Source: Bacteroidota bacterium (GTDB lineage Bacteria > Bacteroidota > Bacteroidia > Bacteroidales > UBA1402). Taken from it: a stretch of DNA of 35,854 bases. Positions within the stretch are counted from its first letter, which is position 1, and every line of letters begins with the position of its first letter. The translations under genes were made by a program, and so were the position numbers. Under the pieces are notes generated by a model. It was not told the DNA's origin. It worked only from the letters and a program-made list of their open reading frames with translations, and ran no database searches. Of the stretch, positions 11,179 through 24,126 are shown in pieces. The stretch is taken from assembly GCA_030706285.1 (NCBI GenBank), contig JAUZOU010000002.1:1-35854 (forward strand). Direction: 5' to 3'.

Positions 11179-11228
11179 AAGATGTGCATTTAATTGGATA
11201 ACAAATTTTAATTTTTCAACACAGGGGA

Positions 11229-11400: not shown

Positions 11401-11628
11401 CTACTTGTCCTTAATCAGATTATACAGCTCTTCGACCGTAGCAACATTACGAATGTCTTTCTTGAAAATTTGTGTATGACACTGTTCATTGATCATCACT
11501 ATGACCAACAATTCCGTCAAGGAACTCCATTCATCCAGATCCTGAAACCTGGTAGCCGAATCTATTCCTTTGGAGGACGATTCGTCAAATTGTTTTGAGA
11601 ACTCACGTACAAAGTCATTCAGTTCCAT
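11401..11628 (-). CDS. Small acyl/peptidyl carrier protein (PP-binding type), paralog of 22373..22606
   Basis: 75 aa and acidic. The motif DLDEWSSLTELLVIVMI places a Ser at about residue 35-36, where ACPs carry the phosphopantetheine serine. It aligns clearly with the 77-aa protein at 22373..22606 (ELEEWSSLIALAVMAI). Confidence 0.7.
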   Translation of the reverse strand: MELNDFVREFSKQFDESSSKGIDSATRFQDLDEWSSLTELLVIVMINEQCHTQIFKKDIRNVATVEELYNLIKDK

Positions 11629-11648
11629 AGGATATAGGTATAATCGTG

Positions 11649-12323
11649 TTATAAATAATCTTCTTCAACCAACAACGTATCGACTGAGTATTTTCTGGCA
11701 GGATTGCCTGAATACAATAACGCCGGCTTTGTTGACTTATTAATGAACGAAGCAGCCCCGACAAACGATTGCCAGCCGATCGTAAGACCATTGGCAACCG
11801 TCGTGTTCTGACCGATGAAGCAATTATCCTCGACGGTAACATCTCCTCCTATCACCACTGAAGCAGCAATGAAGACATTATTACCCACTTTGCATCGATG
11901 ACCGACAATCGCCAGTGCATTCAGGAAGCAGCCCATCCCAATAGATGCTCCCTTACCGATATAACACCCATCACAGATAAACGCGTTGCAACCGATTTCA
12001 GCCGTATGACAAATAGCCTTGGAAGAAATATAGCTGATCAGGTGATAGCCATTCCTCATGGCCTGTTCGATGACTTCGCCTCTCGTTCTGTTCATTTTCC
12101 GATACCCGATTGCAACAAACATATCGAATTCAACCGGTGGATATTTTTCCAGAACACACTCAAAATCCACTACCGGCAGCCCCTCAAACCGGTCAATTTT
12201 CCTAAACGCCTTATGGACAGTAAATGCAACCACCTCATAGTCACTGTCTATATCAAGATAATACTTCACTTCTCCAGCAAGATTCTCATCACCGAAAATG
12301 ATCACTTTCTTTTTCATTATCAT
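11649..12323 (-). CDS. NeuD/PglD-family hexapeptide-repeat sugar N/O-acyltransferase
   Basis: N-terminal Rossmann-like MKKKVIIFGDENLAGEVKYYLDIDSDYEVVAF, then left-handed beta-helix hexapeptide repeats (IGCNAFICDGCYIGKGASIGMGCFLNALAIVGHRCKVGNNVFIAASVVIGGDVTVEDNCFIG). The start could also be the ATG at 12317. Confidence 0.8.
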   Translation of the reverse strand: MIMKKKVIIFGDENLAGEVKYYLDIDSDYEVVAFTVHKAFRKIDRFEGLPVVDFECVLEKYPPVEFDMFVAIGYRKMNRTRGEVIEQAMRNGYHLISYISSKAICHTAEIGCNAFICDGCYIGKGASIGMGCFLNALAIVGHRCKVGNNVFIAASVVIGGDVTVEDNCFIGQNTTVANGLTIGWQSFVGAASFINKSTKPALLYSGNPARKYSVDTLLVEEDYL

Positions 12324-12422
12324 ATCTGCTTTTCTGATTTCAACTTCATCTGCCGGCTTACTGTATTACCGGACATCAGCTCCTACTAAAAATCCTTTAA
12401 CCAGCTTCAGGTCCAACGCATT

Positions 12423-13034
12423 TTAGCCAGCCGTCGAAGGGGATTGTTCAACGAATACTTTTTCCCTTTTTATAACAGCTTCAATTGTCTTGAAAACGAT
12501 TTTCAAGTCAAACAAGAAATTCATATGCTCGACATAAAACAAATCTTTTTCAAATTTCTCTGCCTGCCCAATTGAATTACGAAAATAAGCCTGGACATAC
12601 CCAGTAATACCAGGGCGAACTGATATGATTTTCAATTGGACATCATCAAAGTCATTCACGTTGTTTGTCGCCAGTACCGGACGCGGTCCGACAAGGCTCA
12701 TATCACCCACAAGCACATTCAAGAACTGTGGTATTTCATCAATGCTCGTTTTACGAAAGAATTTTCCACACTTGGTCTGACGCGGGTCGTTTTCTCCATT
12801 GAACGTCGAACCGTCCACATTGCGAATATCCGGCGAATTTACCTTCATCGTCCTGAGCTTGAACATCTTGAAATTTTTCCCGTTGCGCCCCAGTCTATAG
12901 GCATTGTAAAAAACGGGACCTTTATCCGTGAAATAGATAACTGGAGCTGACAGTACAACGACAACTGCCACAAATGGGAAAGCCAAAATCGACAGAACTA
13001 TATCGAATAGTCTTTTTAAATACTTATTATACAT
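12423..13034 (-). CDS. Small monotopic phosphoglycosyl transferase (bacterial sugar transferase, PglC/WcfS-like), copy 1
   Basis: Internal ATG at 13034 gives MYNKYLKRLFDIVLSILAFPFVAVVVVLSAPVIYF (re-entrant helix). Motifs FKMFKLRTM, DEIPQ (Asp-Glu dyad), GDMSLVGPRP, PGITG. The longer ORF to 13124 would overlap the upstream GT4 gene. Confidence 0.85.
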   Translation of the reverse strand: MYNKYLKRLFDIVLSILAFPFVAVVVVLSAPVIYFTDKGPVFYNAYRLGRNGKNFKMFKLRTMKVNSPDIRNVDGSTFNGENDPRQTKCGKFFRKTSIDEIPQFLNVLVGDMSLVGPRPVLATNNVNDFDDVQLKIISVRPGITGYVQAYFRNSIGQAEKFEKDLFYVEHMNFLFDLKIVFKTIEAVIKREKVFVEQSPSTAG

Positions 13035-13068
13035 ACTATTTCCTCTAATGATTAATTTCCGCCCAGTA

Positions 13069-14304
13069 TTACTGACCAACTTTGAACCTGTTAAATACAT
13101 CAATGTATTTGGATGTACCCACATCGCGTGTCAGATTTTTCATCACATAGCGTCGTCCGTTAAGACCAAATTCCCTACAATCAGATCTGTTATTGTATAA
13201 CCACAATATGGCCTGTTTAAAGGCTTCTTTATCGCCAGCCTTTGTAAAAAGGCCACATTTATTTTCAGTAAGAATCGTCATCAATTCGTTCTCATCGAAA
13301 CTTGCCAGAACCGCACGCTTTGCAGACATGATGCTCCAGGTTTTGCTTGGAACCGAATTTTCCCCGACTCCAGGTCTTGATATAACCAACCCCACATCGC
13401 CTAAACTGAAGACATGAGAAATATCTTCATATGGCTGCAAAGGCAGCAGTCGAATATTTGTGCAATTTTTCTCCGAAATCATCGTCTCAACTTTATGCTT
13501 GTAGACGCCCTCTCCAATGAGGACAAACTGGACATCCGGTATCGATTCAAATTCAGAGGCAACCTCCAACAGCATGTCCATATTCTGAGTAAGCCCAATG
13601 TTGCCACAATAAGAGATGTAAAATTTGTTGCGATCTAGATTGTACCGGTCAAACAATTTGTTTGACTGACGTTCGATATGCTGGACGGCGTTTTCGTCAA
13701 CCCAGTTGTAGACAACATCAATCTTTTCTTCCGGAACACCTTTTGCCAGTATATTACTCTTAAATCCTTCAGATATAACAATTATCCGGTCCGCATGTTT
13801 ATAGGTAAAATCTTCAATTCTTCTACCGACTTTCCAAAGCAAGGAGTTTTTTTTCGCCAATCCTGTACCAACCAACGAGTCAGGAAAAACATCCTGGAGA
13901 TTGTAGATAAATGGTATTTTCCTGACTTTTTTCAACATAGCGGCCATCGCTCCTTGAATAGGTGGGGTACTGCCTATAAACATCACATCGATATCTTTTG
14001 AAGCTCGTCCAAGGTTAAATTGCCTGATGCAGCAACAAACATAACGGAAAGCCCGAATCAAAGGATTTGTTCCCTCACGGAACATATTGAAGCGATGAAC
14101 GGTCAACTTGTTATCATACATCGTTTCATGTACTTTTTTCTTATAGCTGTTTCTTTCTTCCACTGATATGCCACGTGAAGGCATCGGCGTATATACAACC
14201 ATCTCAAAAGCAGCTTTTGCCAGAGCTTCTCTTAAATTTTCCCCAAGATAGCTGCTAGCCGCACTCTCCGGTGTAAAATAGGCTGGAAGAATTAAGATTT
14301 TCAT
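13069..14304 (-). CDS. GT4-family glycosyltransferase (WbuB-like)
   Basis: MKILILPAYFTPESAASSYLGENL N-terminus typical of WbuB-type GT4 enzymes. GT-B C-terminal half: GNIGLTQNMDMLLEVA...LIGEG...SKTWSIMSAKRAVLAS. Confidence 0.8.
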   Translation of the reverse strand: MKILILPAYFTPESAASSYLGENLREALAKAAFEMVVYTPMPSRGISVEERNSYKKKVHETMYDNKLTVHRFNMFREGTNPLIRAFRYVCCCIRQFNLGRASKDIDVMFIGSTPPIQGAMAAMLKKVRKIPFIYNLQDVFPDSLVGTGLAKKNSLLWKVGRRIEDFTYKHADRIIVISEGFKSNILAKGVPEEKIDVVYNWVDENAVQHIERQSNKLFDRYNLDRNKFYISYCGNIGLTQNMDMLLEVASEFESIPDVQFVLIGEGVYKHKVETMISEKNCTNIRLLPLQPYEDISHVFSLGDVGLVISRPGVGENSVPSKTWSIMSAKRAVLASFDENELMTILTENKCGLFTKAGDKEAFKQAILWLYNNRSDCREFGLNGRRYVMKNLTRDVGTSKYIDVFNRFKVGQ

Positions 14305-14307
14305 CGA

Positions 14308-15489
14308 TTACTGAACTGTTATGTTTATGGTTTCTATTGCCTTATCACACCGATCTACCGCATCTTTCGCATCGCATCCCTGAGCTATAACGAACCCAAT
14401 CCGGTCAAGGCTATTGTAAATTGGAGTAACCTGATCTCCAACGCCCTTGCTAAAAACGATATCTTCAATACCCTGGATTTTTTTGGCAGCTTCAACGCCA
14501 GTTATGGACGTGATGATTCCGCTAGGAACATCAAAATATCGAATGGCGCTTCCTTTTTCAAATTGAGTTTCAATGTTCGGAACTTCTCCAAATGCAACAT
14601 CCATTGTGGCTTTCAACATATCGATACCTGTCGAGAGCGGCACTAGATGGGTAGTTATGCAATCCCCTCCCATTCGAGCGCCAAGCTCTACCATCCGTGG
14701 GCCATCTTTTGTCAGGATGATCTCAACATGAGCCGGGCCAAGATCAATGCCCACAGCTTTTACTGCTCTGGCTGCAAGATCTCGTATTTTCACAAGATCG
14801 TCCGTTTGAATTTGCGAGGGTTGACTATGTCCCATCTCAACAAAATAGGGCATGCCAGTTGTTAGCTTATCCGTTATGGCAAGAATATGAGGGAGTCCGT
14901 CAATGACCATAACCTCAACACTGACTTCTCGTCCACTCATGTAATCTTCTACGATCACTTCTCCGTGACGAGAATATTTTTTACTATAGGAATATGCCGA
15001 TTCGACATGCTGTTCGTTTTCAACAAGGATGACACCACTGCTGCCTGAATTGTCTATCGGTTTAAAGACACAGGGATATAACAATTTGGCCCGAATCAAT
15101 TCAAACTCATCATTATCTGCAATCGTGTAATACCACGGCGATTCGACGTTCCTTTCCTTAAAGGCCCGTATCATCTCACCCTTATCCGTCGCTTTGATGG
15201 CTGTTTCATAGGTAATGCCTGGAAGCCCCATCAACCTTGTTGCTGCCGCTAAAGAACGTACAGGCATATCTGTGGCAATTGCCATAATTCCATCAGGCCG
15301 GAACTTTTTCGCAACACTACAAATTGCATCAACATCAATGGTGCTGGCATTAAAATATTCGTCAGCGTAAGGAATTCCAACAGCTTGATCGTTAAAATCC
15401 GCAACAGCAACATAATGGCCTAATTTTTTTGCCTTTAATATTGCCGGTAATTGAAGTACAGACGCTCCAATAATCAAAAGTCTACCCAT
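14308..15489 (-). CDS. ATP-grasp carboxylate-amine ligase (L-amino-acid-ligase-like), copy 1
   Basis: Pre-ATP-grasp Rossmann N-terminus MGRLLIIGASVLQLPAILKAKKLGHYVAVAD. Central YPCVFKPIDNSGSSGVILV. ...VEDYMSGREVSVEVMV... C-terminal VELGARMGGD. Paralog of 16199..17383. Confidence 0.8.
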   Translation of the reverse strand: MGRLLIIGASVLQLPAILKAKKLGHYVAVADFNDQAVGIPYADEYFNASTIDVDAICSVAKKFRPDGIMAIATDMPVRSLAAATRLMGLPGITYETAIKATDKGEMIRAFKERNVESPWYYTIADNDEFELIRAKLLYPCVFKPIDNSGSSGVILVENEQHVESAYSYSKKYSRHGEVIVEDYMSGREVSVEVMVIDGLPHILAITDKLTTGMPYFVEMGHSQPSQIQTDDLVKIRDLAARAVKAVGIDLGPAHVEIILTKDGPRMVELGARMGGDCITTHLVPLSTGIDMLKATMDVAFGEVPNIETQFEKGSAIRYFDVPSGIITSITGVEAAKKIQGIEDIVFSKGVGDQVTPIYNSLDRIGFVIAQGCDAKDAVDRCDKAIETINITVQ

Positions 15490-15542
15490 AATGTCTGATA
15501 CAATTTGTCTGGTTTAACGACTATAATCAGTGTAATAATTTT

Positions 15543-16163
15543 TTATTCAATAAGCATAAGACCATAGAAAATCACAGAATTCGTATAAATCCCTTTTCTG
15601 CTAACAACTGTCTGAATGGTTTTTATGAAGATCCTGGCATCCAAGCAAAAGCTCATGTTGTTTGCATAATAGGCATCATTTAACCGCTTTTCCCTGTTTG
15701 TCAAGCTATTTCTGAAATAAGCCTGAGTATAGCCTGTTATACCAGGCAAAGCCTTCATTTTATCCGATTCATCGTTCCTAAAAGATCCGATTGCACTAGA
15801 CAGACTTGGTCTTGGACCGATGATCGACATATCTCCCTTTAAAACGTTTATCAGCTGTGGTAGTTCATCCAAGCTCGTCTCTCTTATAAACTTTCCGATC
15901 CTGGTTACCCTTGGATCGTTTTTTGAATTATACGTGCTACCGTCTGAATTGATCAGTTGTGGTGCATTGACTTTCATAGACCTAAATTTATACATCTTAA
16001 AAATCTTATACTGTCTGCCGATCCGGTCGGCCTTGTAAAAAACCGGTCCTCCATCTTCAAGTTTAATCAATCCCCCCAGTATTATGCAAACGATCAAGAA
16101 AACCGGAAGGCATAAAAAGAAGACAAGCAGATCTTCCACTCGTTTGAAAATTGTGATGTACAT
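15543..16163 (-). CDS. Small monotopic phosphoglycosyl transferase (PglC-like), copy 2
   Basis: FKRVEDLLVFFLCLPVFLIVCIILGGLI re-entrant helix. FKMYKFRSM, DELPQ, GDMSIIGPRP, PGITGYTQAYFRNS. Clear paralog of 12423..13034. Confidence 0.85.
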   Translation of the reverse strand: MYITIFKRVEDLLVFFLCLPVFLIVCIILGGLIKLEDGGPVFYKADRIGRQYKIFKMYKFRSMKVNAPQLINSDGSTYNSKNDPRVTRIGKFIRETSLDELPQLINVLKGDMSIIGPRPSLSSAIGSFRNDESDKMKALPGITGYTQAYFRNSLTNREKRLNDAYYANNMSFCLDARIFIKTIQTVVSRKGIYTNSVIFYGLMLIE

Positions 16164-16198
16164 ATTGATTCCTTTTTTAAATCAGTTGTTCACTCCTG

Positions 16199-17383
16199 TC
16201 AAGCACGTACAATGCCTTCATCGATCATCTGCTTGGCCAGTTCGACCCTGCGTAAACAGTCATTTTTGTCGGATGAAACAGCCAGTACATAACCGCAACC
16301 ATCCAGATTATTTTTATACTCCCTGATCGAATCATGGACCTGCAAATGATGAAAAATATGGACCTGACATTGATGCGTAATCTTATTAAAATCAGGCAAT
16401 CCAGTTATCTTTCCAGGTTTCAGTGCCAGTATTTTTGTCGCTACAGCATAAGTTCCAACAGATGCCATGTTCACCTCATCTCCGACAGCCGCCCTGATCA
16501 GATTGCCCATATAATCGATACCCGTGTGCAACGGAACGATGTGAGAGCCGATCAGATTACCCCCCATCCTTGCACCCACATCAACAATATAGATTTTGTT
16601 ATCGCTGGTAATCAAAATGTCCATATTCACAGCACCGAAATCAATGCCAAGAGTTATTATGGCATTGCTCACAACGGTTTTGACTTCTTTCTCTATGGCT
16701 AAACCACTAGGCAACGAATGGCCCAGTTCTGCGTAGATAGGGGGCGAAGTCATCTGTTTATCAAGAATTGCCAGCACATGGACATGACCATTGTATACAA
16801 ACGATTCGACCCCATATTCTTTTCCAACAATAAAATCTTCAATTAAAGCCTTCCCGACATTTGAGGACGCGATGGCCATCCGGCAGGCAGATCGAAGATG
16901 CTGAATCGAATTTACCCGTTTAATCGCTTTACTACCCGATCCGTCACATGGTTTGACCATAACAGGGAAGTGAATACTATCTCTAAGCTGATCGATTTCA
17001 TTCAGGTCACTGATTAAATAATAATGAGACAAATCATCAATCTGACTGGTAAATAACGTACGACGTATATAGAATTTATTTTTGACTGTTTGTGCTACCT
17101 TATAGTCAATGCCGGGAAGTGACATTTGCTGAGAAATATAGGCTGATGTCAAGACTCCATAATCTGTTGCAGCTGTCAGAACTCCATCAACCTTCTTCTC
17201 TTTGGCATAGGCCAGGCAGGACTCTTGATCTACAATATCGATTGTTTTGTATTCGTCGGCATACCTGAAACCAATAGATTTCGGATTCCCATCAACGACA
17301 ACAGTCTCATAGCCAAGCTCCTTCGCTTTTACTATAATAAAAGTCTGTAAAAAGCCCGCACCAATAATTAAAATTCGCTTCAT
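16199..17383 (-). CDS. ATP-grasp carboxylate-amine ligase (L-amino-acid-ligase-like), copy 2
   Basis: MKRILIIGAGFLQTFIIVKAKELGYETVVVD. FPVMVKPCDGSGSKAIKRV. IEDFIVGKEYGVESFV. VDVGARMGGN. Confidence 0.8.
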   Translation of the reverse strand: MKRILIIGAGFLQTFIIVKAKELGYETVVVDGNPKSIGFRYADEYKTIDIVDQESCLAYAKEKKVDGVLTAATDYGVLTSAYISQQMSLPGIDYKVAQTVKNKFYIRRTLFTSQIDDLSHYYLISDLNEIDQLRDSIHFPVMVKPCDGSGSKAIKRVNSIQHLRSACRMAIASSNVGKALIEDFIVGKEYGVESFVYNGHVHVLAILDKQMTSPPIYAELGHSLPSGLAIEKEVKTVVSNAIITLGIDFGAVNMDILITSDNKIYIVDVGARMGGNLIGSHIVPLHTGIDYMGNLIRAAVGDEVNMASVGTYAVATKILALKPGKITGLPDFNKITHQCQVHIFHHLQVHDSIREYKNNLDGCGYVLAVSSDKNDCLRRVELAKQMIDEGIVRA

Positions 17384-17408
17384 ATCAAGCCAATGTTAAG
17401 CAATTATA

Positions 17409-17993: not shown

Positions 17994-19058
17994 CTAACAT
18001 TCAATCATCTTATTGAACCTCAACTGTCCTACCTCCATAATTATGGCAGCCCAAGTCAATCCGACACCAAATCCAGCCAGACACAGTTTATACTGATTGT
18101 GGCAGAGTTTGTCTCCAAGGTTATATGAAATGTTGGTCGGCACCGTGACACTACTGGCATTTCCGAATAGCCCGACGATGTTGCTCGGCATTTTTTCTCT
18201 GTCCACTCCGATCGTATCTGCCAATTTATTTAACATAAATCGGTTGGGCTGATGAAACATATACCAATCAATGTCGTCACGATTCAATCCTGATTTTGTC
18301 AGTAATTCTTCAATCATCGGAGGCACTTCCCTCTGGACAAAATTGAAGATTTCATCTCCTTTCATGATAACCTGGTTCAGCGACCGGATATTTCCATCCT
18401 CATCTTCACGCATGATCGCCGTTTCTGCACTGCATGGCATACGGAAACCACCAGCCGGAATCATCAGTGCAAAGGCGCCTGTACCATCCATCTTGATGGC
18501 ACAATGAATGACCGAGCCGGTCGGATTCTTTTCGACAATAGTCACAGAAGCCGCATCACCTGCCAATGGATATGAATTCCGGTCTTGTTTGGAGACTTTT
18601 GAACTCAGGACATCGGCATTCAACAGAACGACCCTGTTAATCGAGTCCTGCTCCAGTAACATAAAGGCCTGAATAAGGCCAAGTTCATAGCCAGCACAGC
18701 CCTGATTAATATCCATACAAATCATATCCTGTTTCATGCCGTAATGGCCTTGAATAATGTTGCTTGTCGGCGGCAGGAAATAATCCGGCGATTGAGAAAC
18801 AAACAACAAGGCATCGATCTCGTTTTTATCCAGCAGTTCATTTTGAAACAGATAATCCAGTCCGGCGATGCACAAATCTGATGCACAAACCTCACTGTCT
18901 GCAAGTCTATGCGTATTGTACCCCATAGCCAGTTTTAGTTTCATCGATTTGGCCGGAGGAAAATTATAATTTTCCACCTCATCGTCAAACTTCAGTTCAT
19001 TTCGAGGCAAGACAGTCAGAATACCACTGATCCTTTTGTTGTTGAATGTCAGTTTCAC
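17994..19058 (-). CDS. KAS III (FabH)-like thiolase-fold enzyme, copy 2 in transcription order
   Basis: A Cys-His-Asn triad is present: DINQGCAGYELG, MFHQPNRFML, GLFGNASSVTVP. The first possible start in the open frame is GTG at 19056..19058, 8 nt after the upstream stop. The next in-frame ATG is about 48 codons in. Confidence 0.85.
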   Translation of the reverse strand: MKLTFNNKRISGILTVLPRNELKFDDEVENYNFPPAKSMKLKLAMGYNTHRLADSEVCASDLCIAGLDYLFQNELLDKNEIDALLFVSQSPDYFLPPTSNIIQGHYGMKQDMICMDINQGCAGYELGLIQAFMLLEQDSINRVVLLNADVLSSKVSKQDRNSYPLAGDAASVTIVEKNPTGSVIHCAIKMDGTGAFALMIPAGGFRMPCSAETAIMREDEDGNIRSLNQVIMKGDEIFNFVQREVPPMIEELLTKSGLNRDDIDWYMFHQPNRFMLNKLADTIGVDREKMPSNIVGLFGNASSVTVPTNISYNLGDKLCHNQYKLCLAGFGVGLTWAAIIMEVGQLRFNKMIEC

Positions 19059-19066
19059 TTGAGTTT

Positions 19067-20083
19067 TTATCTAAGTGTATTTGTCTTTCCTAAATCGTAT
19101 CTTTTCGATAGTGCAATTCGAAAATTTTCCGGTGGTATTCCACAGGAAATCATAGCTATAAATACTTCCGATTCTCTTATATCGCACAACTTACGTAACG
19201 TTAAATCCTTTTCAATCGTATTACTGCAATTCAACATACAAGCTCCAATTTTATAATAATGCAAAGCATAAAGTACATTCATTGCATAGATGCCACCATC
19301 TATAAAAGATTCATTTCTTTCTCCAACATTTGCAAACACACCGACTTCAGCTGTTATAACGATCAACTTGTTAACTAAATGTCCAAAGCCTCTATTTCCT
19401 CCCTGGATAATTAATATTGAATTAATTTGATCTTTATTTTCAAACACATACGTCCTCCAGCATTGTCGATTGCAGGCTGATGGTGCCGTTCGTGCCAAAT
19501 CCAGGACCTCAATCAGTTTTTCTGTAGGAATGTTTTCAGTAGAATAATTCCTTATACTTGATCTCGATTTGGCAAATTGAAAAAAGGGAGATTCCGAGTA
19601 TCTGAAATAGTCTTCAATAGATGCGTCTTTTTGACGACAAACAGTGGTTTTAGCTACCACTTGCTTTAAATCATGAATTGAATTTGCGACTACCGCTTCT
19701 AACTGAAACATACAATTTTGGTGAAATTGTTCATACTCCAAGACGACGCCAACGGCATGTTCCAGCTGTTCATCAGTTTCGCCATATTTTTCAATATATT
19801 GCCTGCAATTAGTAGCCAGATTAAAGAGTAACTCCCTTCCAAATCCGAGTTTGGTATCTGGCATAGTCAAGCCTTTTTCAACGACATGGTATTCCTTTAT
19901 AATCTTACCAATTAGCTTTTGAGCGGTATTCGATCCAAAAGTATCTGAAAACCGTATGTACCTGTTCATGTCATAGCGGTACGCTTGCATTAGATGCCAC
20001 AGTAAGCTAAATTGTAGCTTCTTTCGTTTCAGAAAATCAAAAACGACAGTGGGTAGAATATTCTGAAGTAGTTCTTTTAGCAT
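19067..20083 (-). CDS. Nitroreductase-family (FMN oxidoreductase) domain protein with an unrecognised N-terminal extension of about 160 aa
   Basis: The C-terminal half carries RSSIRNYSTENIPTEKLIEVLDLARTAPSACNRQCWR, which fits the nitroreductase RxxxRxF ... PSxxNxQPW pattern. I recognise no family for the N-terminal half. Confidence 0.7.
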   Translation of the reverse strand: MLKELLQNILPTVVFDFLKRKKLQFSLLWHLMQAYRYDMNRYIRFSDTFGSNTAQKLIGKIIKEYHVVEKGLTMPDTKLGFGRELLFNLATNCRQYIEKYGETDEQLEHAVGVVLEYEQFHQNCMFQLEAVVANSIHDLKQVVAKTTVCRQKDASIEDYFRYSESPFFQFAKSRSSIRNYSTENIPTEKLIEVLDLARTAPSACNRQCWRTYVFENKDQINSILIIQGGNRGFGHLVNKLIVITAEVGVFANVGERNESFIDGGIYAMNVLYALHYYKIGACMLNCSNTIEKDLTLRKLCDIRESEVFIAMISCGIPPENFRIALSKRYDLGKTNTLR

Positions 20084-20215
20084 ATTAGTTTTTTTTTAGC
20101 CCGTAAAACCGAGCCCTGTTGGTTTAACTATCTTGTGTCGGACAAGCTGATCAATAGTAATAGATTATACCGATGCCTATTCCAGTCTTTTTCTTTACAA
20201 TTGATTCATTTCCAT

Positions 20216-20452
20216 TTACTTGGCGATATTTTTGGTAACAAGTGCCATAATATGTTCAACAGAGTTGAAATTTTCCGGAATGATGTCCATCCCGCTGATT
20301 GAGATTGAATAGGCATCATCCAATGACGAAACAAGATTGACTATATCGAATGAATCCAACATGCCTTCTTCAATAAAGTCCATCTGGGCATTAAAATTGT
20401 ATTCCGGACGAAGTTCTTCCAGGATTTCAAGTATGATTTCTTTCATAATCAT
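20216..20452 (-). CDS. DltC-like (D-alanyl-carrier-type) carrier protein
   Basis: 78 aa. FIEEGMLDSFDIVNLVSSLDDAYSISI closely parallels the DltC motif (EEGLLDSMGTVQLLLEL...) around the phosphopantetheine Ser. The start is ATG 20452 or 20446. Confidence 0.75.
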   Translation of the reverse strand: MIMKEIILEILEELRPEYNFNAQMDFIEEGMLDSFDIVNLVSSLDDAYSISISGMDIIPENFNSVEHIMALVTKNIAK

Positions 20453-20550
20453 AAGTTTTTATTCAAGACCATAAGCAACTCACATGTCGGATTTTCGCCC
20501 ACGCTGAACAGACGTTTGGGACAAACATGTTCGTTTCATAGCTTGATGTT

Positions 20551-21312
20551 TTATTGTTTGACAAACACATAATCTTTTAGACCATCTGGCTGATAATCAA
20601 GGATCTTATACATCTTCTTATTTAGTTTATTCATCGAATCATACCAGAAATAGGATTTCTCAATCTGATGTTCACCCATATAGTTGAACATATTGAAAAG
20701 TAAGAATAAGGCATTGTCCCAGCCCGTATGATCAAGCCAGCAATTAAAGTAAATTCTTGACTGTTCCCTGGTATAAATAATGACGCCTGTCACATCGCCT
20801 GATTGTTCATGCCGGTTTACCAAGGCCTGTTCATGCTCAATCATTCGTCGAAGCTCTTCCCTGGAGGGCAAATGGTCCAGATACGGATTAAAATGTGAAT
20901 AAAGCAGCGTATATATAGCTTCCAACTCATCTGGGCGGGCATAACACTGGATAAAAGGGCCGCTGGATTTATTGGAATTTTTATAAAGTCGTTCATAGAT
21001 GCCACATAGCTTGTATCCGCCTGTTACGAGAATCATCTCCAAGGATTGATCGATGGCTGTCTTTGATGGAATGTTGATGATATCTTCCGGCATCAGCCGT
21101 TTCAAGACACGCATTAATTCGACTGCGTTGTTGGATAAAAAATAGATACGGGAATACGTTTCATGATTTTTTTTCAAAATCAATGATTCCGGCAGTTCAA
21201 TATACTGCGTATCTGTCAGATCCACGCCGTAATAATTTGAGAATGCAGGCCGTTTCGATAGGATGCAGGCCACTTTTTCCTTTAATTGATGATGATCGGC
21301 CGGAATAAACAT
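20551..21312 (-). CDS. Hypothetical protein (253 aa). The C-terminal half may have a GNAT-like fold
   Basis: A clean ORF, separated by 3 nt from the stop of the upstream KAS III-like gene. The C-terminal region ARPDELEAIYTLLYSHF...VTGVIIYTREQSRIYFNCW...MYKILDYQPDGLKDYVFVK has the general layout of a GNAT domain but lacks a clear Q/RxxGxG/A motif. Confidence 0.5.
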   Translation of the reverse strand: MFIPADHHQLKEKVACILSKRPAFSNYYGVDLTDTQYIELPESLILKKNHETYSRIYFLSNNAVELMRVLKRLMPEDIINIPSKTAIDQSLEMILVTGGYKLCGIYERLYKNSNKSSGPFIQCYARPDELEAIYTLLYSHFNPYLDHLPSREELRRMIEHEQALVNRHEQSGDVTGVIIYTREQSRIYFNCWLDHTGWDNALFLLFNMFNYMGEHQIEKSYFWYDSMNKLNKKMYKILDYQPDGLKDYVFVKQ

Positions 21313-21315
21313 ACC

Positions 21316-22314
21316 TCAATTGAAATTTAATGTGACACCACCCCAGGAATAACCCGCTCCAAAACCTGCCAGCAAGACTTGTCCATGTAAGCGATCCTCT
21401 TTTTTTGCCTCATACAGAGCGATCGGAATACTTGAGGAAACCGTATTTCCTACATTTTCCAGGAATATGTAAAATTTTTCTTCTTCGATTGACAGCAGTT
21501 TTCTCAAATAGTTGATCATGTATTTGTTGGCCTGATGAAAAACAAACAAGTTGATATCAGGTTGTAAAAGGTGGTTACGGGCCAACACATGATCGACCAA
21601 ATCAGGAACGACCAGATTTGAAAAAGAAAAGACGGCACTACCGTTCATATACAGAAAGTCGCTTGAGACCGGATTATTTGAAGCATCAAAAGTCAGGTCA
21701 TTCAGTGGCTCACGATGACGCATCGCCCCTGTCTTGATGATCAGATCCTCTTTGTTTTTGCCATCTGATCCGAACGAAAACTCTCCGATTTCAGCCAGTC
21801 CATTCTTTGAGATTAAGGAGGCTGAAGCGCCATCACCAAAGATCGTGCGGTTTCCTTTATCCTTCGGATGTAAGCATTTAGTCATCGTTTCACCCGTTAG
21901 CAACAATACATTGGTAGCCATTCCGCTAAAAATCAGCCCTTTTGACAGAGCTAGTCCATAAATAAAGCCTGAACAACCCAATGAAAAATCCAAGGCACCA
22001 CAGGTGGTCGGCAGCCTTAACTCATGCTGAATCAGACAGGCCGAACACGGCAACATGTAATCCGGAGTCTCAGTGCAAAACAGCACAAAATCTATCGTCG
22101 ACCGGTCAATTTGATTTTCCTTGAATAGATTTTCTGCTGCCCTGACAGCCAGATCAGCTGCCGTTTCATTGTCAGCCGCTACATGCCGCTGATTGACACC
22201 CACTTTGGAGGCTATCTTGTCAACGCTCCATTCCGGAAACAACTCAACCAGCTGAGCATTAGTCAATATCTTTTCAGGAAGGGCATATGCCAAGGCCTTA
22301 ATATAGACTTTCAT
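21316..22314 (-). CDS. KAS III (FabH)-like thiolase-fold enzyme, copy 1 in transcription order
   Basis: Internal ATG at 22314 gives a FabH-typical start, MKVYIKALAYALPEKILTNAQL. Triad: DFSLGCSGFIYG, VFHQANKYMI, ENVGNTVSSSIP. The longer ORF to 22401 would overlap the upstream carrier gene by 29 nt. Confidence 0.85.
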   Translation of the reverse strand: MKVYIKALAYALPEKILTNAQLVELFPEWSVDKIASKVGVNQRHVAADNETAADLAVRAAENLFKENQIDRSTIDFVLFCTETPDYMLPCSACLIQHELRLPTTCGALDFSLGCSGFIYGLALSKGLIFSGMATNVLLLTGETMTKCLHPKDKGNRTIFGDGASASLISKNGLAEIGEFSFGSDGKNKEDLIIKTGAMRHREPLNDLTFDASNNPVSSDFLYMNGSAVFSFSNLVVPDLVDHVLARNHLLQPDINLFVFHQANKYMINYLRKLLSIEEEKFYIFLENVGNTVSSSIPIALYEAKKEDRLHGQVLLAGFGAGYSWGGVTLNFN

Positions 22315-22372
22315 AAGATCATATTTATTTTTAACGCATAGGCTTTCGTGACCACGGGGGAATTCAAACCTT

Positions 22373-22606
22373 TCAGTTCCTTTTTGACTCGACCAGTTCA
22401 AACAAATCCTTGATGGTATTCATTTGCCTCATTTCATTGACGGTTATGACAACGCCATACTTTTTGTCTGTTATAGCCATAACGGCCAACGCAATTAAGG
22501 AAGACCATTCTTCCAGTTCTCTGAATTTTGTTTCCGGGTTAAAAACCGCTTTGTCCGTTTCCTCAAACTGATCTGAAATCAGTTTAATGTATTCGTTGAC
22601 TTCCAT
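22373..22606 (-). CDS. Small acyl/peptidyl carrier protein, immediately downstream of the adenylating enzyme
   Basis: 77 aa. FRELEEWSSLIALAVMAITDKKYG with Ser at about residue 35-36. It starts 5 nt after the stop of the adenylation gene. Paralog of 11401..11628. Confidence 0.7.
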   Translation of the reverse strand: MEVNEYIKLISDQFEETDKAVFNPETKFRELEEWSSLIALAVMAITDKKYGVVITVNEMRQMNTIKDLFELVESKRN

Positions 22607-22611
22607 AATAA

Positions 22612-24126
22612 TTAGGCATTTAGGGTTCGACTTAGTTCCAACCTGTTGATCTTTCCATTCGAATTGACAGGCATCTTATTGATTCTGATCGCTTTTGACG
22701 GCAACATGTATTTAGGAATCAACTTAGACAATTGCTGCCGGAGATCGCTCATGGAAACGTCCGTCTTTGCCTCATAAAATAGAGTTATTTGCTGAACCTT
22801 ATAATCGTAGACGGCACAGCAACTATCTACCAGATGGGTTCCAAGAATGACTGTTTCAATTTCTCCAAGTTCAATCCGGTAGCCGTTCAATTTTATCTGA
22901 GCATCTTTTCGACCAACCAGGATAATCTCACCCGCCCTGTTTTGGTAGGCCAAATCGCCTGTCCGGTAAATCAGTTCCGGATAATGTCGGTTCAATGGAT
23001 TTTGAACAAACACTGTTTGTGTCTTTTCCTTGTCGTTGTAATAGCCCAATGCAAGGGATGATCCTCTCACACACAACTCACCTTGTTCACCAGGTTTGGC
23101 CATTTCTCCATTTTCAGTCAAAATCAGGATGTGCGTATTTTTACAAGCATAACCGATCGGCAATGGCTCATCATCTGAAAACGCCCGTTTCACCTCATAG
23201 TAAGTACAATCTACCGTTATTTCAGTCGGTCCGTACAAATTAACATAGCGACAATCGGGCAAATAGTTTCTCCAGTAATTCAGATGCTTGTTGTGCATCA
23301 CATCTCCGGCAAAAAAAACATCACGCAGATAAACTGGTTTTTTCATTGCAAACAGGTCCAGATTGGCTATCGTCGCAAACACATAAGGCACCCAGAAAAT
23401 CAGGCTGATTTGCCACTCATTCAACAAGTCGATCAATCTGGCAGGAAATGAAAACGAGTCCTCCGGCAAGATGGCCAATGTCGCTCCTGTGGCATACATC
23501 AGATAAATATCCAAGGTGGAATTGTCAAAATAGAATGGAGATTGATTGCCGATGATGGTAGTTTCGTCGATGTTCAATGCCAAGACGGCCCAGTCTATGT
23601 AATCAATCACCCCACGATGGGCAATCACGACGCCTTTTGGAATTCCGGTAGAACCTGAAGTGAATATCGAATAAACAGGATCTGTGTCAATTTTACGATC
23701 GATTGTATGCCGAATGGCCGATTCATCTATTTCCGGAGACAGGATCAAATCTTCGTATAAAATAATTTTCTGTAAACAAAATGACGTCAATGTTTCATAA
23801 TGACTTTTATCCGTAATGACGATTTGAGGGTCAATCACGTTTAAAATCGCTTTCACGCGAGCATCAGGAGACTTCACATCCAAAGGCACATAAAAGTTTC
23901 CACTATAATTAATTCCAAGAAAAGAGATAACAGATTCTTTGTTTTTAGGCATATATATTGCCACCGGACTGTCTTTCACCTGGCTGTTCAGCAGTTGCGA
24001 GGCTATCCTTTTCCCGGCATTCATCAGTTGAGCAAACGAAATCGCTCCATTCGCATCTTTTACAGCAATTTTGTCAGGATAGGCAGCCGTGGTTCTTTCC
24101 AGGTAGTCTGTTACGTTGGTTGTCAT
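22612..24126 (-). CDS. DltA-like stand-alone amino-acid adenylation enzyme (AMP-binding/ANL superfamily)
   Basis: The NRPS A-domain core motifs appear in order: SIFTSGSTGIPKGVVIAH (A3), NQSPFYFDNSTLDIY (A4, with the Asp that contacts an alpha-amino group), NLYGPTEITV (A5), GELCVRGSSLALGYY (A6), YRTGDLA (A7), GRKDAQIKLNGYRIELGEIE (A8), LPKYMLP (A9), NSNGKINR (A10). Length and motif spacing match DltA (NQAPFSFDLSVMDLY, TYGPTEATV) as I recall it. Confidence 0.9.
   Translation of the reverse strand: MTTNVTDYLERTTAAYPDKIAVKDANGAISFAQLMNAGKRIASQLLNSQVKDSPVAIYMPKNKESVISFLGINYSGNFYVPLDVKSPDARVKAILNVIDPQIVITDKSHYETLTSFCLQKIILYEDLILSPEIDESAIRHTIDRKIDTDPVYSIFTSGSTGIPKGVVIAHRGVIDYIDWAVLALNIDETTIIGNQSPFYFDNSTLDIYLMYATGATLAILPEDSFSFPARLIDLLNEWQISLIFWVPYVFATIANLDLFAMKKPVYLRDVFFAGDVMHNKHLNYWRNYLPDCRYVNLYGPTEITVDCTYYEVKRAFSDDEPLPIGYACKNTHILILTENGEMAKPGEQGELCVRGSSLALGYYNDKEKTQTVFVQNPLNRHYPELIYRTGDLAYQNRAGEIILVGRKDAQIKLNGYRIELGEIETVILGTHLVDSCCAVYDYKVQQITLFYEAKTDVSMSDLRQQLSKLIPKYMLPSKAIRINKMPVNSNGKINRLELSRTLNA

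What the first reader, a model, noticed from the sequence alone, without database searches (positions are those of the whole stretch)
11401..24126. Carrier-protein-dependent tailoring module of about 13 kb embedded in a Wzx/Wzy polysaccharide locus
This stretch lies between the glycosyltransferase block and the terminal aminotransferase.

What it encodes:
- one DltA-type amino-acid adenylating enzyme
- three stand-alone carrier proteins (22373..22606, 20216..20452, 11401..11628)
- two KAS III-like enzymes with intact Cys-His-Asn triads
- two ATP-grasp ligases
- one clear GNAT and one possible GNAT
- a nitroreductase-domain protein
- a NeuD/PglD-type acyltransferase.

All are co-directional and tightly spaced with wzx, wzy and the GT genes.

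What it lacks: ketoreductase, dehydratase, enoyl reductase, elongating KS, condensation domain, thioesterase and PPTase. So it is not a fatty-acid synthase, a canonical NRPS/PKS or an aryl-polyene cluster.

The most economical reading is that a non-sugar substituent is assembled on carrier proteins and then transferred to the sugar repeat unit. The substituent could be an amino acid, a short acyl or beta-keto/amino-acyl group, or a small peptide.

Established partial precedents:
- D-alanylation of teichoic acids (DltA/DltC)
- as I recall it, the Vibrio cholerae O1 rfbK-O genes, where an ACP-like protein, an adenylating enzyme and an acyltransferase N-acylate perosamine with tetronate.

I do not recognise this particular combination (three carriers, two KAS III, two ATP-grasp) as a described pathway.
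Basis: partly seen in the sequence, partly recalled or inferred. Interest (0 to 1): 0.78.

Follow-up and report, generated by a model that had tools for sequence, protein, structure and literature searches.

The report
Carrier-protein acyl-decoration genes in capsule locus
A capsule gene cluster of a gut-type Bacteroidales bacterium contains an uncharacterised but widespread gene set that probably builds a small amino-acid-containing acyl group on carrier proteins and attaches it to an amino sugar, though the 13-kb "module" is really three separate units plus one inserted gene.

Summary
All the listed genes are real and sit at the stated coordinates.

The block is a mosaic of three units, not one module.
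- Unit i (24126-17409) is the carrier cassette. Its invariant core is an NRPS-type amino-acid adenylase, CP2 and KAS2, present in 28 of 28 related loci, with CP2 and KAS2 always 5-26 bp apart. A tandem-GNAT protein with no Pfam or NCBIfam family (20/28), a second carrier (27/28) and an SDR reductase (23/28) usually join it. The window has no SDR.
- Unit ii (17383-13034) is AG1-PGT1-AG2-GT4c. AG2 and GT4c belong to a very common Bacteroidaceae cassette that has no carrier proteins.
- Unit iii (13034-9898) is PGT2, a PglD/NeuD-like acyltransferase, CP3 and an aminotransferase. It resembles the Flavobacterium psychrophilum wfp genes.

The nitroreductase gene is a 1.16-kb insertion. It is absent from the closest relative, and its family normally sits beside Wzx and pyruvyl transferases.

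Most likely function: carrier-bound synthesis of an amino-acid-containing short acyl group that N-acylates a 4-amino sugar.

Verdict: a new variant of a known kind, not biochemically characterised, with moderate interest.

The parts
22612..24126 (-). Stand-alone amino-acid adenylating enzyme (Aden), invariant core member
   Evidence: PF00501 216 bits. TIGR01733 342.6 bits, above the 317.4 cut-off; DltA models below cut-off. Best PDB matches are NRPS A domains (LgrA 359 bits, PheA 222, DltA about 199). The specificity code DNLFFALVDK keeps Asp235 and Lys517. It is identical in L002, L007 and L009. Present in 28/28 KAS2 loci.
22373..22606 (-). CP1, divergent carrier protein (W-S-S-L motif)
   Evidence: Weak full-length ACP hits (E 1e-3). 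hhalign against the CP2 family gives 90% probability, with the serine aligned to AcpP Ser36. 84% identical in L022.
21316..22314 (-). KAS1, KAS III-type condensing enzyme (probable ATG start at 22314)
   Evidence: PF08545 and PF08541; NF006829 264.9 bits, above the 249 cut-off. PDB 3GWA 321 bits. Cys-His-Asn intact. Accessory gene: found in 3 of 28 loci, 89% identical in L022 and 64% in L004.
20551..21312 (-). unk253, tandem-GNAT acyltransferase with no Pfam or NCBIfam family
   Evidence: No Pfam or NCBIfam hit. AlphaFold pLDDT 90.5. Foldseek matches VipF, MshD (TMq 0.69), WecD, glycine N-acyltransferase and MprF. Profile search: 1263 cluster representatives at E<=1e-3 and 70 at E<=1e-30. Present in 20/28 KAS2 loci, usually directly upstream of CP2.
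20216..20452 (-). CP2, DltC-like carrier protein (L-D-S motif), invariant core member
   Evidence: PF00550 22.4 bits, above the 20.8 cut-off; weak DltC hit at E 8.7e-10. Present in 28/28 loci, always 5-26 bp upstream of KAS2 except in this window.
19067..20083 (-). Nitroreductase-domain protein. Probably not part of the carrier pathway; lies within a 1,157-bp insertion (19059-20215)
   Evidence: PF00881 on residues 172-315, plus a 170-aa N-terminal extension. 1356 homologs across Bacteroidota. Conserved context is Wzx-NTR-pyruvyl transferase. Found in 0 of 28 KAS2 loci and absent from L022, where the KAS2 start codon follows the CP2 stop codon within a few bases.
17994..19058 (-). KAS2, KAS III-type condensing enzyme, invariant core member
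   Evidence: PF08545 and PF08541. PDB 4EFI 196 bits. Cys-His-Asn intact, but FabH Arg36, Arg249 and Gly306 are not kept. 229 relatives at 58-88% identity in metagenomes.
17409..17891 (-). Small GNAT acetyltransferase
   Evidence: PF00583 32.6 bits. 60% identical ortholog at the same position in L022. Positional analogs after KAS2 or the SDR in L004 (Acetyltransf_3/4) and L001 (weak Acetyltransf_3).
16199..17383 (-). AG1, ATP-grasp ligase of L-amino-acid-ligase type
   Evidence: PF13535 and PF02655, weak LAL_C2. 34% identical to AG2. 82% identical ortholog follows the GNAT in L022. Absent from the other KAS2 loci.
15543..16163 (-).
   Evidence: PF02397 195 bits. 46% identical to PGT2.
14308..15489 (-). 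AG2, ATP-grasp ligase of L-amino-acid-ligase type; member of a common carrier-free Bacteroidaceae cassette
   Evidence: PF13535 81.6 bits and LAL_C2 74.3 bits. PDB 4DIM and L-amino-acid ligase 3VOT. More than 5000 homologs at E<=1e-30. Usual context is DegT-PGT-AG2-...-GT4.
13069..14304 (-).
   Evidence: GT4 and GT1 Pfam domains. 67% identical orthologs in the AG2 cassette of L018-L021.
12423..13034 (-). PGT2, small phosphoglycosyl transferase (probable start at 13034, 203 aa)
   Evidence: PF02397 195 bits. 54-55% identical to the 203-aa PGT of L018-L021.
11649..12323 (-). NeuD/PglD/VioB-type hexapeptide acyltransferase
   Evidence: TIGR03570 158.5 bits (cut-off 160.8) and hexapeptide repeats. 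PglD-like genes flank the cassette in L002, L007 and L009 and in 9 of 28 loci.
11401..11628 (-). CP3, carrier protein paralogous to CP1
   Evidence: 31% identical to CP1 (E 6e-16), with the same W-S-S-L motif. Belongs to the family validated by hhalign.
9898..11178 (-). DegT/PglE/PseC-type sugar aminotransferase (ATG at 11178)
   Evidence: PF01041 274 bits. Best NCBIfam hit is PseC at 253 bits, below its cut-off. A 222-bp upstream gap holds a hairpin with a T-run and a TAAAATTTG element.

Best explanation
The 13-kb stretch is a mosaic of three tailoring and initiation units inside a Wzx/Wzy capsule locus of a Bacteroidales bacterium. All three units probably act on the same kind of sugar, a UDP-4-amino-4,6-dideoxy-HexNAc made by the DegT aminotransferase.

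Unit i (24126-17409) is a member of a conserved, cross-phylum, uncharacterised cassette. Proposed steps:
1. The stand-alone adenylase activates a probably small alpha-amino acid and loads it on a carrier. (Inferred from family membership, Asp235/Lys517 and invariant co-occurrence with CP2.)
2. The KAS III enzymes, with intact Cys-His-Asn, make a beta-ketoacyl unit on a second carrier by decarboxylative condensation. (Inferred.) In most related loci an SDR reduces it to 3-hydroxyacyl. This window has a second KAS III and carrier pair instead of the SDR.
3. The tandem GNAT, the small GNAT, or both form the amide between the acyl and aminoacyl parts, or cap the amine. (Inferred from fold only.)
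4. The finished N-acyl-aminoacyl or amino-ketoacyl group is transferred from the carrier to the 4-amino group of the sugar. The transferase would be the PglD/NeuD-like enzyme, which has its own adjacent carrier CP3 (unit iii), or the tandem GNAT.
5. A small PglC-like PGT then starts the repeat unit on undecaprenyl phosphate.

Unit ii (AG1-PGT1-AG2-GT4c) is an independent ATP-grasp route. It most likely adds amide-linked amino acid(s) without carriers.

The nitroreductase gene is a recent insertion and probably has no role in the carrier pathway.
For: - Domain assignments.
- Carrier status of CP1, CP2 and CP3.
- Cys-His-Asn kept in KAS1, KAS2 and 106 homologs.
- The adenylase passes TIGR01733 and keeps Asp235 and Lys517. 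Its code is conserved among orthologs that are only 56-61% identical.
- Tandem GNAT fold of unk253, including a match to the nucleotide-sugar N-acetyltransferase WecD.
- Co-occurrence in 28 loci: Aden 28, CP2 28, SDR 23, unk253 family 20, at least two carriers 27, DegT 14, PGT 11, NeuD 9.
- Polysaccharide context of the related loci (Wzc, OmpA, Wzm/Wzt, GTs, FdtA).
- The same cassette occurs in Campylobacter concisus and Paenibacillus.
- F. psychrophilum precedent. Two ketoacyl-ACP synthases, an ACP, a KR and a PglD homolog are predicted to make 3,5-dihydroxyhexanoyl on the ACP and transfer it to UDP-Qui2NAc4N. The polysaccharide structure is known.
- O-antigens with N-(3-hydroxybutanoyl)-D-alanyl and N-acetyl-aminoacyl groups on amino sugars exist.
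- AG2 and GT4c orthologs (64% and 67%) sit in carrier-free DegT-PGT-ATP-grasp-GT4 cassettes.
- Nitroreductase insertion.
Against: - No enzyme of this cassette has been tested, and no polysaccharide structure is linked to it.
- The window has no ketoreductase, malonyl transferase, PPTase or sugar 4,6-dehydratase, so several steps need genes from elsewhere.
- Gene order cannot say which carrier the adenylase loads. CP1 is 5 bp downstream of it here, but CP2 is its invariant partner.
- It is unresolved whether the KAS III enzymes take acetyl-CoA or the aminoacyl carrier as primer.
- Two PGTs in one locus are unexplained.
- The insertion between CP2 and KAS2, and a KAS2 start at GTG, could impair expression.
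- KAS1 and KAS2 lack FabH Arg36, Arg249 and Gly306, so their substrates differ from those of housekeeping FabH.
Confidence: 0.55

Rival explanations
1. Direct aminoacylation. The adenylase loads an amino acid on a carrier, as DltA does with DltC. The KAS III-like proteins act as Cys-dependent acyltransferases rather than condensing enzymes. They would move the aminoacyl group between carriers and onto a sugar hydroxyl or amine. The GNATs would then N-acetylate it, giving an N-acetyl-aminoacyl sugar.
For: - The adenylase, CP2 and KAS2 form an invariant triad with CP2 immediately upstream of KAS2.
- N-acetyl-aminoacyl substituents are known on O-antigen amino sugars.
- An Antibiotic_NAT or GNAT acetyltransferase is frequent in the cassette.
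- KAS1 and KAS2 have lost the FabH residues Arg36, Arg249 and Gly306.
- From my own knowledge, untested here: KAS III-like acyltransferases such as CerJ and ChlB6 transfer acyl groups to sugars.
Against: - The full Cys-His-Asn triad needed for malonyl decarboxylation is kept in all 106 homologs.
- As I recall, characterised KAS III-type acyltransferases usually lose the Asn.
- An SDR accompanies the triad in 23 of 28 loci, and at least two carriers are present in 27 of 28. This is what a condensation followed by ketoreduction predicts. A simple transfer does not predict it.
Confidence: 0.2
2. Aminoacyl-primed condensation. KAS2 takes the aminoacyl group from CP2 as its primer and condenses it with a malonyl-carrier. 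The product is a 4-amino-3-oxoacyl group, reduced to a statine-like 4-amino-3-hydroxyacyl group where an SDR is present. In this window KAS1 would extend it once more. The product is then attached to the sugar.
For: - The order adenylase - (tandem GNAT) - CP2 - KAS2 - carrier - SDR is recurrent, with CP2 and KAS2 5-26 bp apart.
- The triad is intact.
- Aminoacyl-ACP starter units are established in the macrolactam pathways listed.
Against: - My searches found no KAS III known to accept an aminoacyl-carrier primer.
- Without reduction, the amino-ketoacyl thioester would tend to cyclise and leave the carrier.
- This model gives the conserved tandem GNAT no obvious role.
Confidence: 0.15
3. The block is a recombination patchwork that no longer works as a pathway. 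The nitroreductase insertion and the loss of the SDR would have left a partly decayed cassette, and the capsule carries no product of it.
For: - The 1,157-bp insertion splits the otherwise invariant CP2-KAS2 junction, and KAS2 now starts with GTG.
- The SDR is absent here, whereas 23 of 28 related loci have one.
- Identity to L022 is uneven: 60-89% between neighbouring genes.
- GC content drops to 0.37 at 19-21 kb.
Against: - Every ORF is full length with intact catalytic residues.
- The SDR-less arrangement with two KAS III genes and a GNAT recurs in L022 and L004, so it is a maintained variant.
- The insertion is exactly intergenic.
Confidence: 0.1

Closest known systems
Flavobacterium psychrophilum O-polysaccharide genes wfpC-wfpG with pglE/pglF (Cisar et al. 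2019, PMC6519341)
   Same: - Both are from Bacteroidota.
- Both have two 3-ketoacyl-ACP synthases, a dedicated ACP, a PglD-homolog acyltransferase and a PglE-type aminotransferase inside a polysaccharide locus.
- The predicted logic is the same: build an N-acyl group on the ACP, then transfer it to UDP-Qui2NAc4N.
   Different: - The wfp set as described has a ketoreductase and no adenylase, tandem GNAT, second or third carrier, or ATP-grasp.
- Its product, 3,5-dihydroxyhexanoyl, contains no amino acid.
- The window has no KR and no PglF.
- Homology between wfp proteins and window proteins was not tested, because no sequences were available to me.
- The wfp functions are themselves predictions.
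DltA/DltC D-alanylation of teichoic acids
   Same: A stand-alone amino-acid adenylase paired with a small DltC-like carrier. CP2's best NCBIfam hit is DltC (E 8.7e-10), and DltA structures score about 199 bits.
   Different: - The scores are well below the DltA and DltC equivalog cut-offs.
- There is no DltB (MBOAT) or DltD.
- The partners are cytoplasmic enzymes (KAS III, GNATs).
- The target is presumably a nucleotide- or lipid-linked sugar rather than an extracellular polymer.
Vibrio cholerae O1 tetronate N-acylation of perosamine (wbeK-O / rfbK-O)
   Same: A 4-amino-4,6-dideoxy sugar of an O-antigen is N-acylated with a short unusual acid made by genes inside the locus. wbeL, which has an ATP-binding motif, is genetically required. 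From my own memory of Morona et al. 1995, the set also includes an ACP-like protein and a hexapeptide acyltransferase.
   Different: - As I recall, that set has no KAS III, tandem GNAT or ATP-grasp.
- It uses an ABC-transporter pathway.
- The acid is not amino-acid derived.
- Sequence relatedness was not tested here.
Campylobacter jejuni Cj1438 C-terminal ATP-grasp amidoligase (Raushel laboratory)
   Same: An ATP-grasp enzyme encoded in a capsule locus forms an amide on a capsule sugar, using the glucuronate C6 carboxylate with ethanolamine or serinol phosphate. It is a functional analog for AG1 and AG2.
   Different: [quoted passage not shown] AG1 and AG2 are stand-alone enzymes of L-amino-acid-ligase type, with ATP-grasp_4 and LAL_C2 domains and only a weak TupA hit (E 0.003). 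Their substrates are unknown.
Butirosin AHBA side-chain pathway (BtrI/J/K/O/V/H/G); own knowledge, not checked here
   Same: An amino-acid-derived acyl group is assembled on a stand-alone ACP, with an ATP-grasp ligase taking part. An acyltransferase then moves it to an amino group of an aminoglycoside sugar.
   Different: It is a secondary-metabolite pathway in Bacillus. It has no KAS III or adenylase, and it uses a PLP decarboxylase and a monooxygenase. No sequence comparison was made.

Membership tests
Dlt D-alanylation system | DltA ortholog (D-alanine--D-alanyl carrier protein ligase) | tested here: not met
   TIGR01734 scores 304.2 bits against a cut-off of 559.85, and NF003417 scores 317 against 476. 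The generic amino-acid-adenylation model TIGR01733 passes.
Dlt D-alanylation system | DltC ortholog | tested here: not met
   CP2 scores 38.5 bits on NF003464 (cut-off 68) and 25.3 bits on TIGR01688 (cut-off 52.35).
Dlt D-alanylation system | DltB (MBOAT) and DltD present | tested here: not met
   No MBOAT or DltD domain was found in any of the 27 minus-strand proteins scanned.
Non-ribosomal peptide synthetase | Adenylation domain with Asp235 and Lys517 | tested here: met
   Code DNLFFALVDK. TIGR01733 is above its cut-off.
Non-ribosomal peptide synthetase | Condensation domain and thioesterase | tested here: not met
   No PF00668 or PF00975 hit in any window protein.
Type II FAS-like N-acyl pathway of polysaccharide loci (F. 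psychrophilum wfp type) | One or more KAS enzymes with a catalytic triad, plus a dedicated ACP | tested here: met
   KAS1 and KAS2 keep Cys-His-Asn. There are three carrier proteins.
Type II FAS-like N-acyl pathway of polysaccharide loci (F. psychrophilum wfp type) | 3-ketoacyl-ACP reductase | tested here: not met
   The window has no SDR by Pfam or tblastn. An SDR is present in 23 of 28 related loci.
Type II FAS-like N-acyl pathway of polysaccharide loci (F. psychrophilum wfp type) | PglD-homolog acyltransferase and PglE-type aminotransferase in the locus | tested here: met
   NeuD/PglB/VioB family at 158.5 bits (cut-off 160.8, borderline). DegT at 274 bits.
Type II FAS-like N-acyl pathway of polysaccharide loci (F. 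psychrophilum wfp type) | Orthology to the wfpC-G proteins | not testable with these tools
   The F. psychrophilum sequences were not retrievable.
Type II FAS-like N-acyl pathway of polysaccharide loci (F. psychrophilum wfp type) | Polysaccharide carries the corresponding N-acyl group | not testable with these tools
   This needs NMR/MS of the capsule.
L-amino-acid ligase (ATP-grasp) family | ATP-grasp_4 core plus LAL_C2 C-terminal domain | tested here: met
   AG2: PF13535 81.6 bits and PF18603 74.3 bits; PDB L-amino-acid ligase 3VOT 108 bits. AG1: PF13535 53.5 bits, with LAL_C2 at only 24.3 bits, below its cut-off.
L-amino-acid ligase (ATP-grasp) family | Ligates two free L-amino acids | not testable with these tools
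   This needs a biochemical assay. The conserved DegT-PGT-AG2-GT4 context suggests a sugar-linked substrate instead.
GNAT superfamily (tandem GNAT, MshD/WecD-like) | Two GNAT-fold domains in one chain | tested here: met
   AlphaFold pLDDT 90.5. Foldseek gives probability 1.00 to VipF, MshD (TMq 0.69), MAB_4324 and WecD.
GNAT superfamily (tandem GNAT, MshD/WecD-like) | Sequence membership in a curated GNAT family | tested here: not met
   No Pfam or NCBIfam hit, even at E<=1 in NCBIfam.

The most novel reading that the evidence does not exclude
The cassette of adenylase, tandem GNAT, carrier, KAS III, second carrier and SDR is the long-missing biosynthetic route for the amino-acid-containing N-acyl groups of bacterial O-antigens and capsules. 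Examples of such groups are N-(3-hydroxybutanoyl)-alanyl and 5-oxoprolyl-type substituents. It would be a miniature hybrid of NRPS-like and FAS-like chemistry, run entirely on free-standing carriers and ending on a nucleotide sugar. The SDR-less variant in this window, with two KAS III enzymes, would then make a beta-keto or cyclised substituent not yet seen on a Bacteroidales capsule.
Probability: 0.3. Interest if true: 0.75.

Novelty: new variant of a known kind. Interest (0 to 1): 0.55.

Why it matters
Many O-antigens and capsules carry unusual N-acyl groups on amino sugars. Examples are 3-hydroxybutanoyl, N-acyl-alanyl, N-acetyl-seryl and oxoprolyl derivatives. These groups dominate serological specificity and phage recognition. 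The E. coli O-antigen review I read catalogues such groups without naming an acyltransferase or carrier protein for them.

This work defines a compact cassette found across phyla. It occurs in Bacteroidales, Campylobacter concisus, Paenibacillus and many metagenomes. Its invariant core is an adenylase, a carrier and a KAS III, and it includes a tandem-GNAT protein family with no Pfam or NCBIfam model. That gives concrete candidate genes and a short list of in-vitro reactions to test.

In gut Bacteroidales, capsule chemistry shapes immune modulation and phage susceptibility. A charged or amino-acid-bearing substituent would therefore be functionally relevant.

The analysis also shows that the nitroreductase and at least AG2/GT4c belong to other, separately conserved polysaccharide cassettes. 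This prevents an over-broad pathway assignment.

Tried and rejected
- A genome scan with the 11-sequence unk253 alignment failed because it had no conserved stretch. I repeated it with six full-length members.
- The word-indexed homolog search suggested that unk253 was extremely rare, with 11 hits. The exhaustive profile search corrected this to about 1,260 cluster representatives.
- I tested whether the nitroreductase is a pathway oxidoreductase, by analogy with SagB or albonoursin synthase. I rejected this as the main reading because of its conserved Wzx/pyruvyl-transferase context and its absence from all 28 cassettes and from L022.
- I tried to link the cassette to the E. coli O123 structure (N-(3-hydroxybutanoyl)-D-alanyl-Qui4N). 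Distant DNA searches of 5,426 E. coli genomes with the adenylase, KAS2 and a human-gut version of the cassette gave only a 54-bp chance hit in acs, or nothing.
- PDB 3GWA and 4EFI, the best matches of KAS1 and KAS2, are uncharacterised FabH paralogs from a structural-genomics survey. They gave no functional lead.
- The sigma-70 promoter scan found no more sites than shuffled sequence (59 against 50.3 +/- 6.2), and that consensus is inappropriate for Bacteroidota.
- The annotated plasmid record for Paenibacillus had no annotation in the region. I mapped the genes myself.
- Literature searches for a described adenylase/ACP/KAS III polysaccharide pathway found nothing relevant.
- I could not assign the adenylase substrate. 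The code DNLFFALVDK matches no canonical code I can recall. The bulky Phe/Phe/Leu lining suggests a small amino acid, but that is only an inference.

Full report
**Layout of the window**

The window carries a long, co-directional minus-strand polysaccharide locus. In transcription order it runs:
- a Wzc-like kinase, cut by the window end
- YdjC
- Wzx
- an FrhB-like Fe-S protein and a pyruvyl transferase
- Wzy
- a GT2 and two GT4 glycosyltransferases
- a secreted 328-aa protein of unknown family
- the block in question
- a DegT aminotransferase
- a 662-aa secreted protein of unknown family

The plus-strand genes at 2.7-7.8 kb encode BspA-type leucine-rich repeat proteins, two of them with type IX secretion sorting domains. 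These, together with the relatives found later, place the window in Bacteroidales.

**Check of the observation**

- **Adenylase (22612-24126).** It passes the amino-acid-adenylation model TIGR01733 (342.6 bits against 317.4). It is far below the DltA equivalogs. Its best solved relatives are NRPS A domains. The alpha-amino-binding Asp235 and Lys517 are both kept.
- **CP2.** It is a bona fide PP-binding protein with weak DltC resemblance.
- **CP1 and CP3.** They are 31% identical paralogs with no Pfam hit. Relatives in other loci carry W-D-S-L where the window has W-S-S-L. A profile of the family matches the CP2 family at 90% probability.
- **KAS III proteins.** FabH Arg36, Arg249 and Gly306 are not kept.
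- **The 'possible GNAT' (20551-21312).** It has no Pfam or NCBIfam hit. It folds with pLDDT 90.5 into a tandem GNAT resembling MshD, VipF, WecD and glycine N-acyltransferase.
- **What is missing.** No KR, DH, ER, KS I/II, C, TE or PPTase domain is present, and there is no SDR, FkbH or MaoC homolog anywhere in the window.

These are two small phosphoglycosyl transferases (46% identical to each other) and a GT4 glycosyltransferase.

**The carrier cassette has a conserved core**

The first homolog search found the tandem-GNAT protein only 11 times. Each of those with a long enough contig lies in a polysaccharide locus beside an adenylase, small carriers and a KAS III. A genome scan added Bacteroidales MAGs and Campylobacter concisus.

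A metagenome scan with KAS2 found 229 relatives at 58-88% identity. I then took the 28 loci that had at least 6 kb upstream and 4 kb downstream of KAS2 and counted which genes accompany it.

| Gene | Loci (of 28) |
|---|---|
| Adenylase | 28 |
| CP2 (always 5-26 bp upstream of KAS2) | 28 |
| At least two carrier-like ORFs | 27 |
| SDR | 23 |
| unk253-family ORF (by HMM; usually directly upstream of CP2) | 20 |
| DegT | 14 |
| Small PGT | 11 |
| NeuD/PglD-like | 9 |
| Antibiotic_NAT acetyltransferase | 9 |
| FkbH | 5 |
| KAS1 | 3 |
| AG2 | 1 |
| Nitroreductase | 0 |

The cassette also occurs in a Paenibacillus replicon in the order carrier, SDR, Antibiotic_NAT, adenylase, tandem GNAT, CP2, KAS2. 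An exhaustive profile search shows that the tandem-GNAT family has about 1,260 cluster representatives, 70 of them close. It is therefore unnamed rather than tiny.

**The block is a mosaic**

The closest relative is L022, an 8.6-kb metagenome contig. It carries the following genes in the window's order.

| Gene | Identity to window |
|---|---|
| unk328 | 84% |
| Aden | 84% |
| CP1 | 84% |
| KAS1 | 89% |
| unk253 | 72% |
| CP2 | 87% |
| KAS2 | 88% |
| GNAT | 60% |
| AG1 | 82% |

L022 has no nitroreductase. There the KAS2 ATG follows within a few bases of the CP2 stop codon. In the window, 1,157 bp carrying the nitroreductase gene lie exactly in that intergenic position.

The nitroreductase family is abundant in Bacteroidota, with 1,356 hits. 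In three independent loci it lies between Wzx and a polysaccharide pyruvyl transferase, with no carriers nearby. It is therefore an inserted gene from another polysaccharide context.

AG2 belongs to a family with more than 5,000 members. In the Bacteroidaceae contigs examined, it sits in DegT, PGT (203 aa), AG2, acyltransferase, further ATP-grasps, GT4 (411 aa). AG2 is 64% identical and GT4c 67% identical to the window proteins, and no carriers are present.

- Unit i, 24126-17409: the carrier cassette.
- Unit ii, 17383-13034: the ATP-grasp, PGT and GT4 unit. AG1 travels with unit i in L022.
- Unit iii, 13034-9898: PGT2, NeuD/PglD-like acyltransferase, CP3 and DegT.

**How it most likely works**

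Shown here:
- the domain families
- intact catalytic residues
- carrier serines
- conserved co-occurrence
- polysaccharide context

Inferred:
1. The adenylase loads an alpha-amino acid on a carrier. The pocket is lined by Phe, Phe and Leu, which suggests a small substrate. CP2 is the likely partner by co-occurrence.
2. KAS III makes a beta-ketoacyl unit on a second carrier. Most relatives reduce it with an SDR. This lineage has a second KAS III and carrier pair instead.
3. The tandem GNAT or the small GNAT forms or caps an amide.
4. The group is passed to the 4-amino group of the sugar made by the PseC/PglE-like DegT. The transferase would be the PglD-like enzyme with its adjacent CP3, or the tandem GNAT.
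5. A PglC-like PGT then starts the repeat unit.

The usual gene set is an adenylase, two carriers, a KAS III, an SDR and an N-acyltransferase. That is what a group such as N-(3-hydroxybutanoyl)-alanyl would need. Such a group is known on Qui4N in E. coli O123 and Salmonella O58. I could not test that link.

Two alternatives remain open:
- KAS III acting as an acyltransferase.
- KAS2 primed by the aminoacyl carrier, giving a statine-like unit.

The ATP-grasp enzymes are of L-amino-acid-ligase type. Given their conserved context, they most likely add amide-linked amino acids independently of the carriers. The experimentally shown Cj1438C amidoligase of C. jejuni is a functional analog from a different ATP-grasp clade.

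**Comparison with known systems**

- **F. psychrophilum wfp genes.** This is the nearest described system. Two ketoacyl-ACP synthases, an ACP, a reductase and a PglD homolog are predicted to make 3,5-dihydroxyhexanoyl and put it on UDP-Qui2NAc4N. The polysaccharide structure is established. The window shares that logic. It adds an adenylase, a tandem GNAT and extra carriers, and it lacks the reductase.
- **Dlt system.** It is not one: the scores are below cut-off and there is no DltB or DltD.
- **NRPS.** It is not one: there is no C domain and no TE.
- **V. cholerae O1 tetronate pathway.** This is a looser analog.
- **Literature.** I found no paper describing the adenylase, carrier and KAS III cassette in a polysaccharide locus.

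**Verdict**

The finding is a new variant of a known kind: carrier-protein-dependent N-acyl decoration of amino sugars. Its value is a cleanly delimited, widespread and untested cassette, together with an unnamed tandem-GNAT family.

Co-transcription remains untested. The only intergenic terminator-like site on the coding strain lies at the CP3 stop codon. A 222-bp gap follows it, containing a Bacteroides-type -7-like element upstream of DegT.

Noticed in passing
window 19059-20215: The nitroreductase gene and its 132-bp upstream spacer form a 1,157-bp insertion exactly between the CP2 stop codon and the KAS2 start codon. KAS2 starts with GTG here but ATG in L022. An 11-nt string CCGGAAAATTT occurs both near the 3' end of CP2 and near the 3' end of the nitroreductase gene. 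Chance expectation is about 0.2 by my rough estimate, so it may mean nothing.
   Followed up: partly
L015:4319-6417, L017:6476-10129, L016:2645-5136 and 8399-9610: The 338-aa nitroreductase family (a nitroreductase domain plus a 170-aa N-terminal extension) directly follows Wzx in L016 and L017. A polysaccharide pyruvyl transferase lies immediately downstream in L015 and L017, and about 3 kb away past an IS66 fragment in L016. This is a widespread pairing of unknown function, analogous to the FrhB-like/pyruvyl-transferase pair.
   Followed up: partly
window 29840-32112: An FrhB/FdhB-like 4Fe-4S protein lies directly upstream of a polysaccharide pyruvyl transferase, and the two genes overlap. 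The same pairing appears at the ends of L015 and L016.
   Followed up: no
window 24317-25303: A 328-aa protein has a signal-peptide-like N-terminus and only a sub-threshold GH56 hyaluronidase hit. It sits directly upstream of the adenylase, and the same arrangement with 84% identity occurs in L022. It may travel with the carrier cassette.
   Followed up: partly
window 7854-9842: A 662-aa protein with a signal peptide and no Pfam or NCBIfam family lies at the distal end of the locus, after the aminotransferase.
   Followed up: no
window 12423-13034 and 15543-16163: One locus holds two small PglC-like phosphoglycosyl transferases, 46% identical. This implies either two possible initiating sugars or a leftover from recombination between two loci.
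   Followed up: partly
window 11179-11409: A terminator-like hairpin with a T-run overlaps the CP3 stop codon. A 222-bp gap follows, ending in TAAAATTTG about 24 nt before the DegT ATG. This resembles the Bacteroides -7 promoter element, so there may be an internal promoter.
   Followed up: partly
L001:7597-9996, L002:4236-6358: Several related cassettes add an FkbH-like protein, a glyoxalase-fold protein and a further carrier, and sometimes a MaoC dehydratase. From my own knowledge, FkbH proteins load a glyceryl unit on a carrier. If so, the cassette would be modular and would make different acyl groups in different loci.
   Followed up: partly
L012-L014 (Campylobacter concisus), L102 (Paenibacillus cellulosilyticus NZ_CP054613.1 1711533-1736591): The adenylase, tandem-GNAT, carrier and KAS III cassette occurs outside Bacteroidota, which suggests horizontal spread of a polysaccharide-tailoring unit. 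The adenylase specificity codes differ between lineages (DFSHFGFVIK and DISFIGTVVK in C. concisus).
   Followed up: partly
window 4-1578 and 1586-2299: A hybrid sensor kinase/response regulator (PAS, HisKA, HATPase_c and a receiver domain) lies at the window start. Next to it is a 237-aa minus-strand ORF with no family hit.
   Followed up: no
L018:9001-13343: The common Bacteroidaceae cassette carries up to three different ATP-grasp genes in a row (LAL type, a second LAL type, and ATPgrasp_ST), next to an Acyl_transf_3 gene. This may be a carrier-free route to peptide-like sugar substituents, and appears to be uncharacterised.
   Followed up: no
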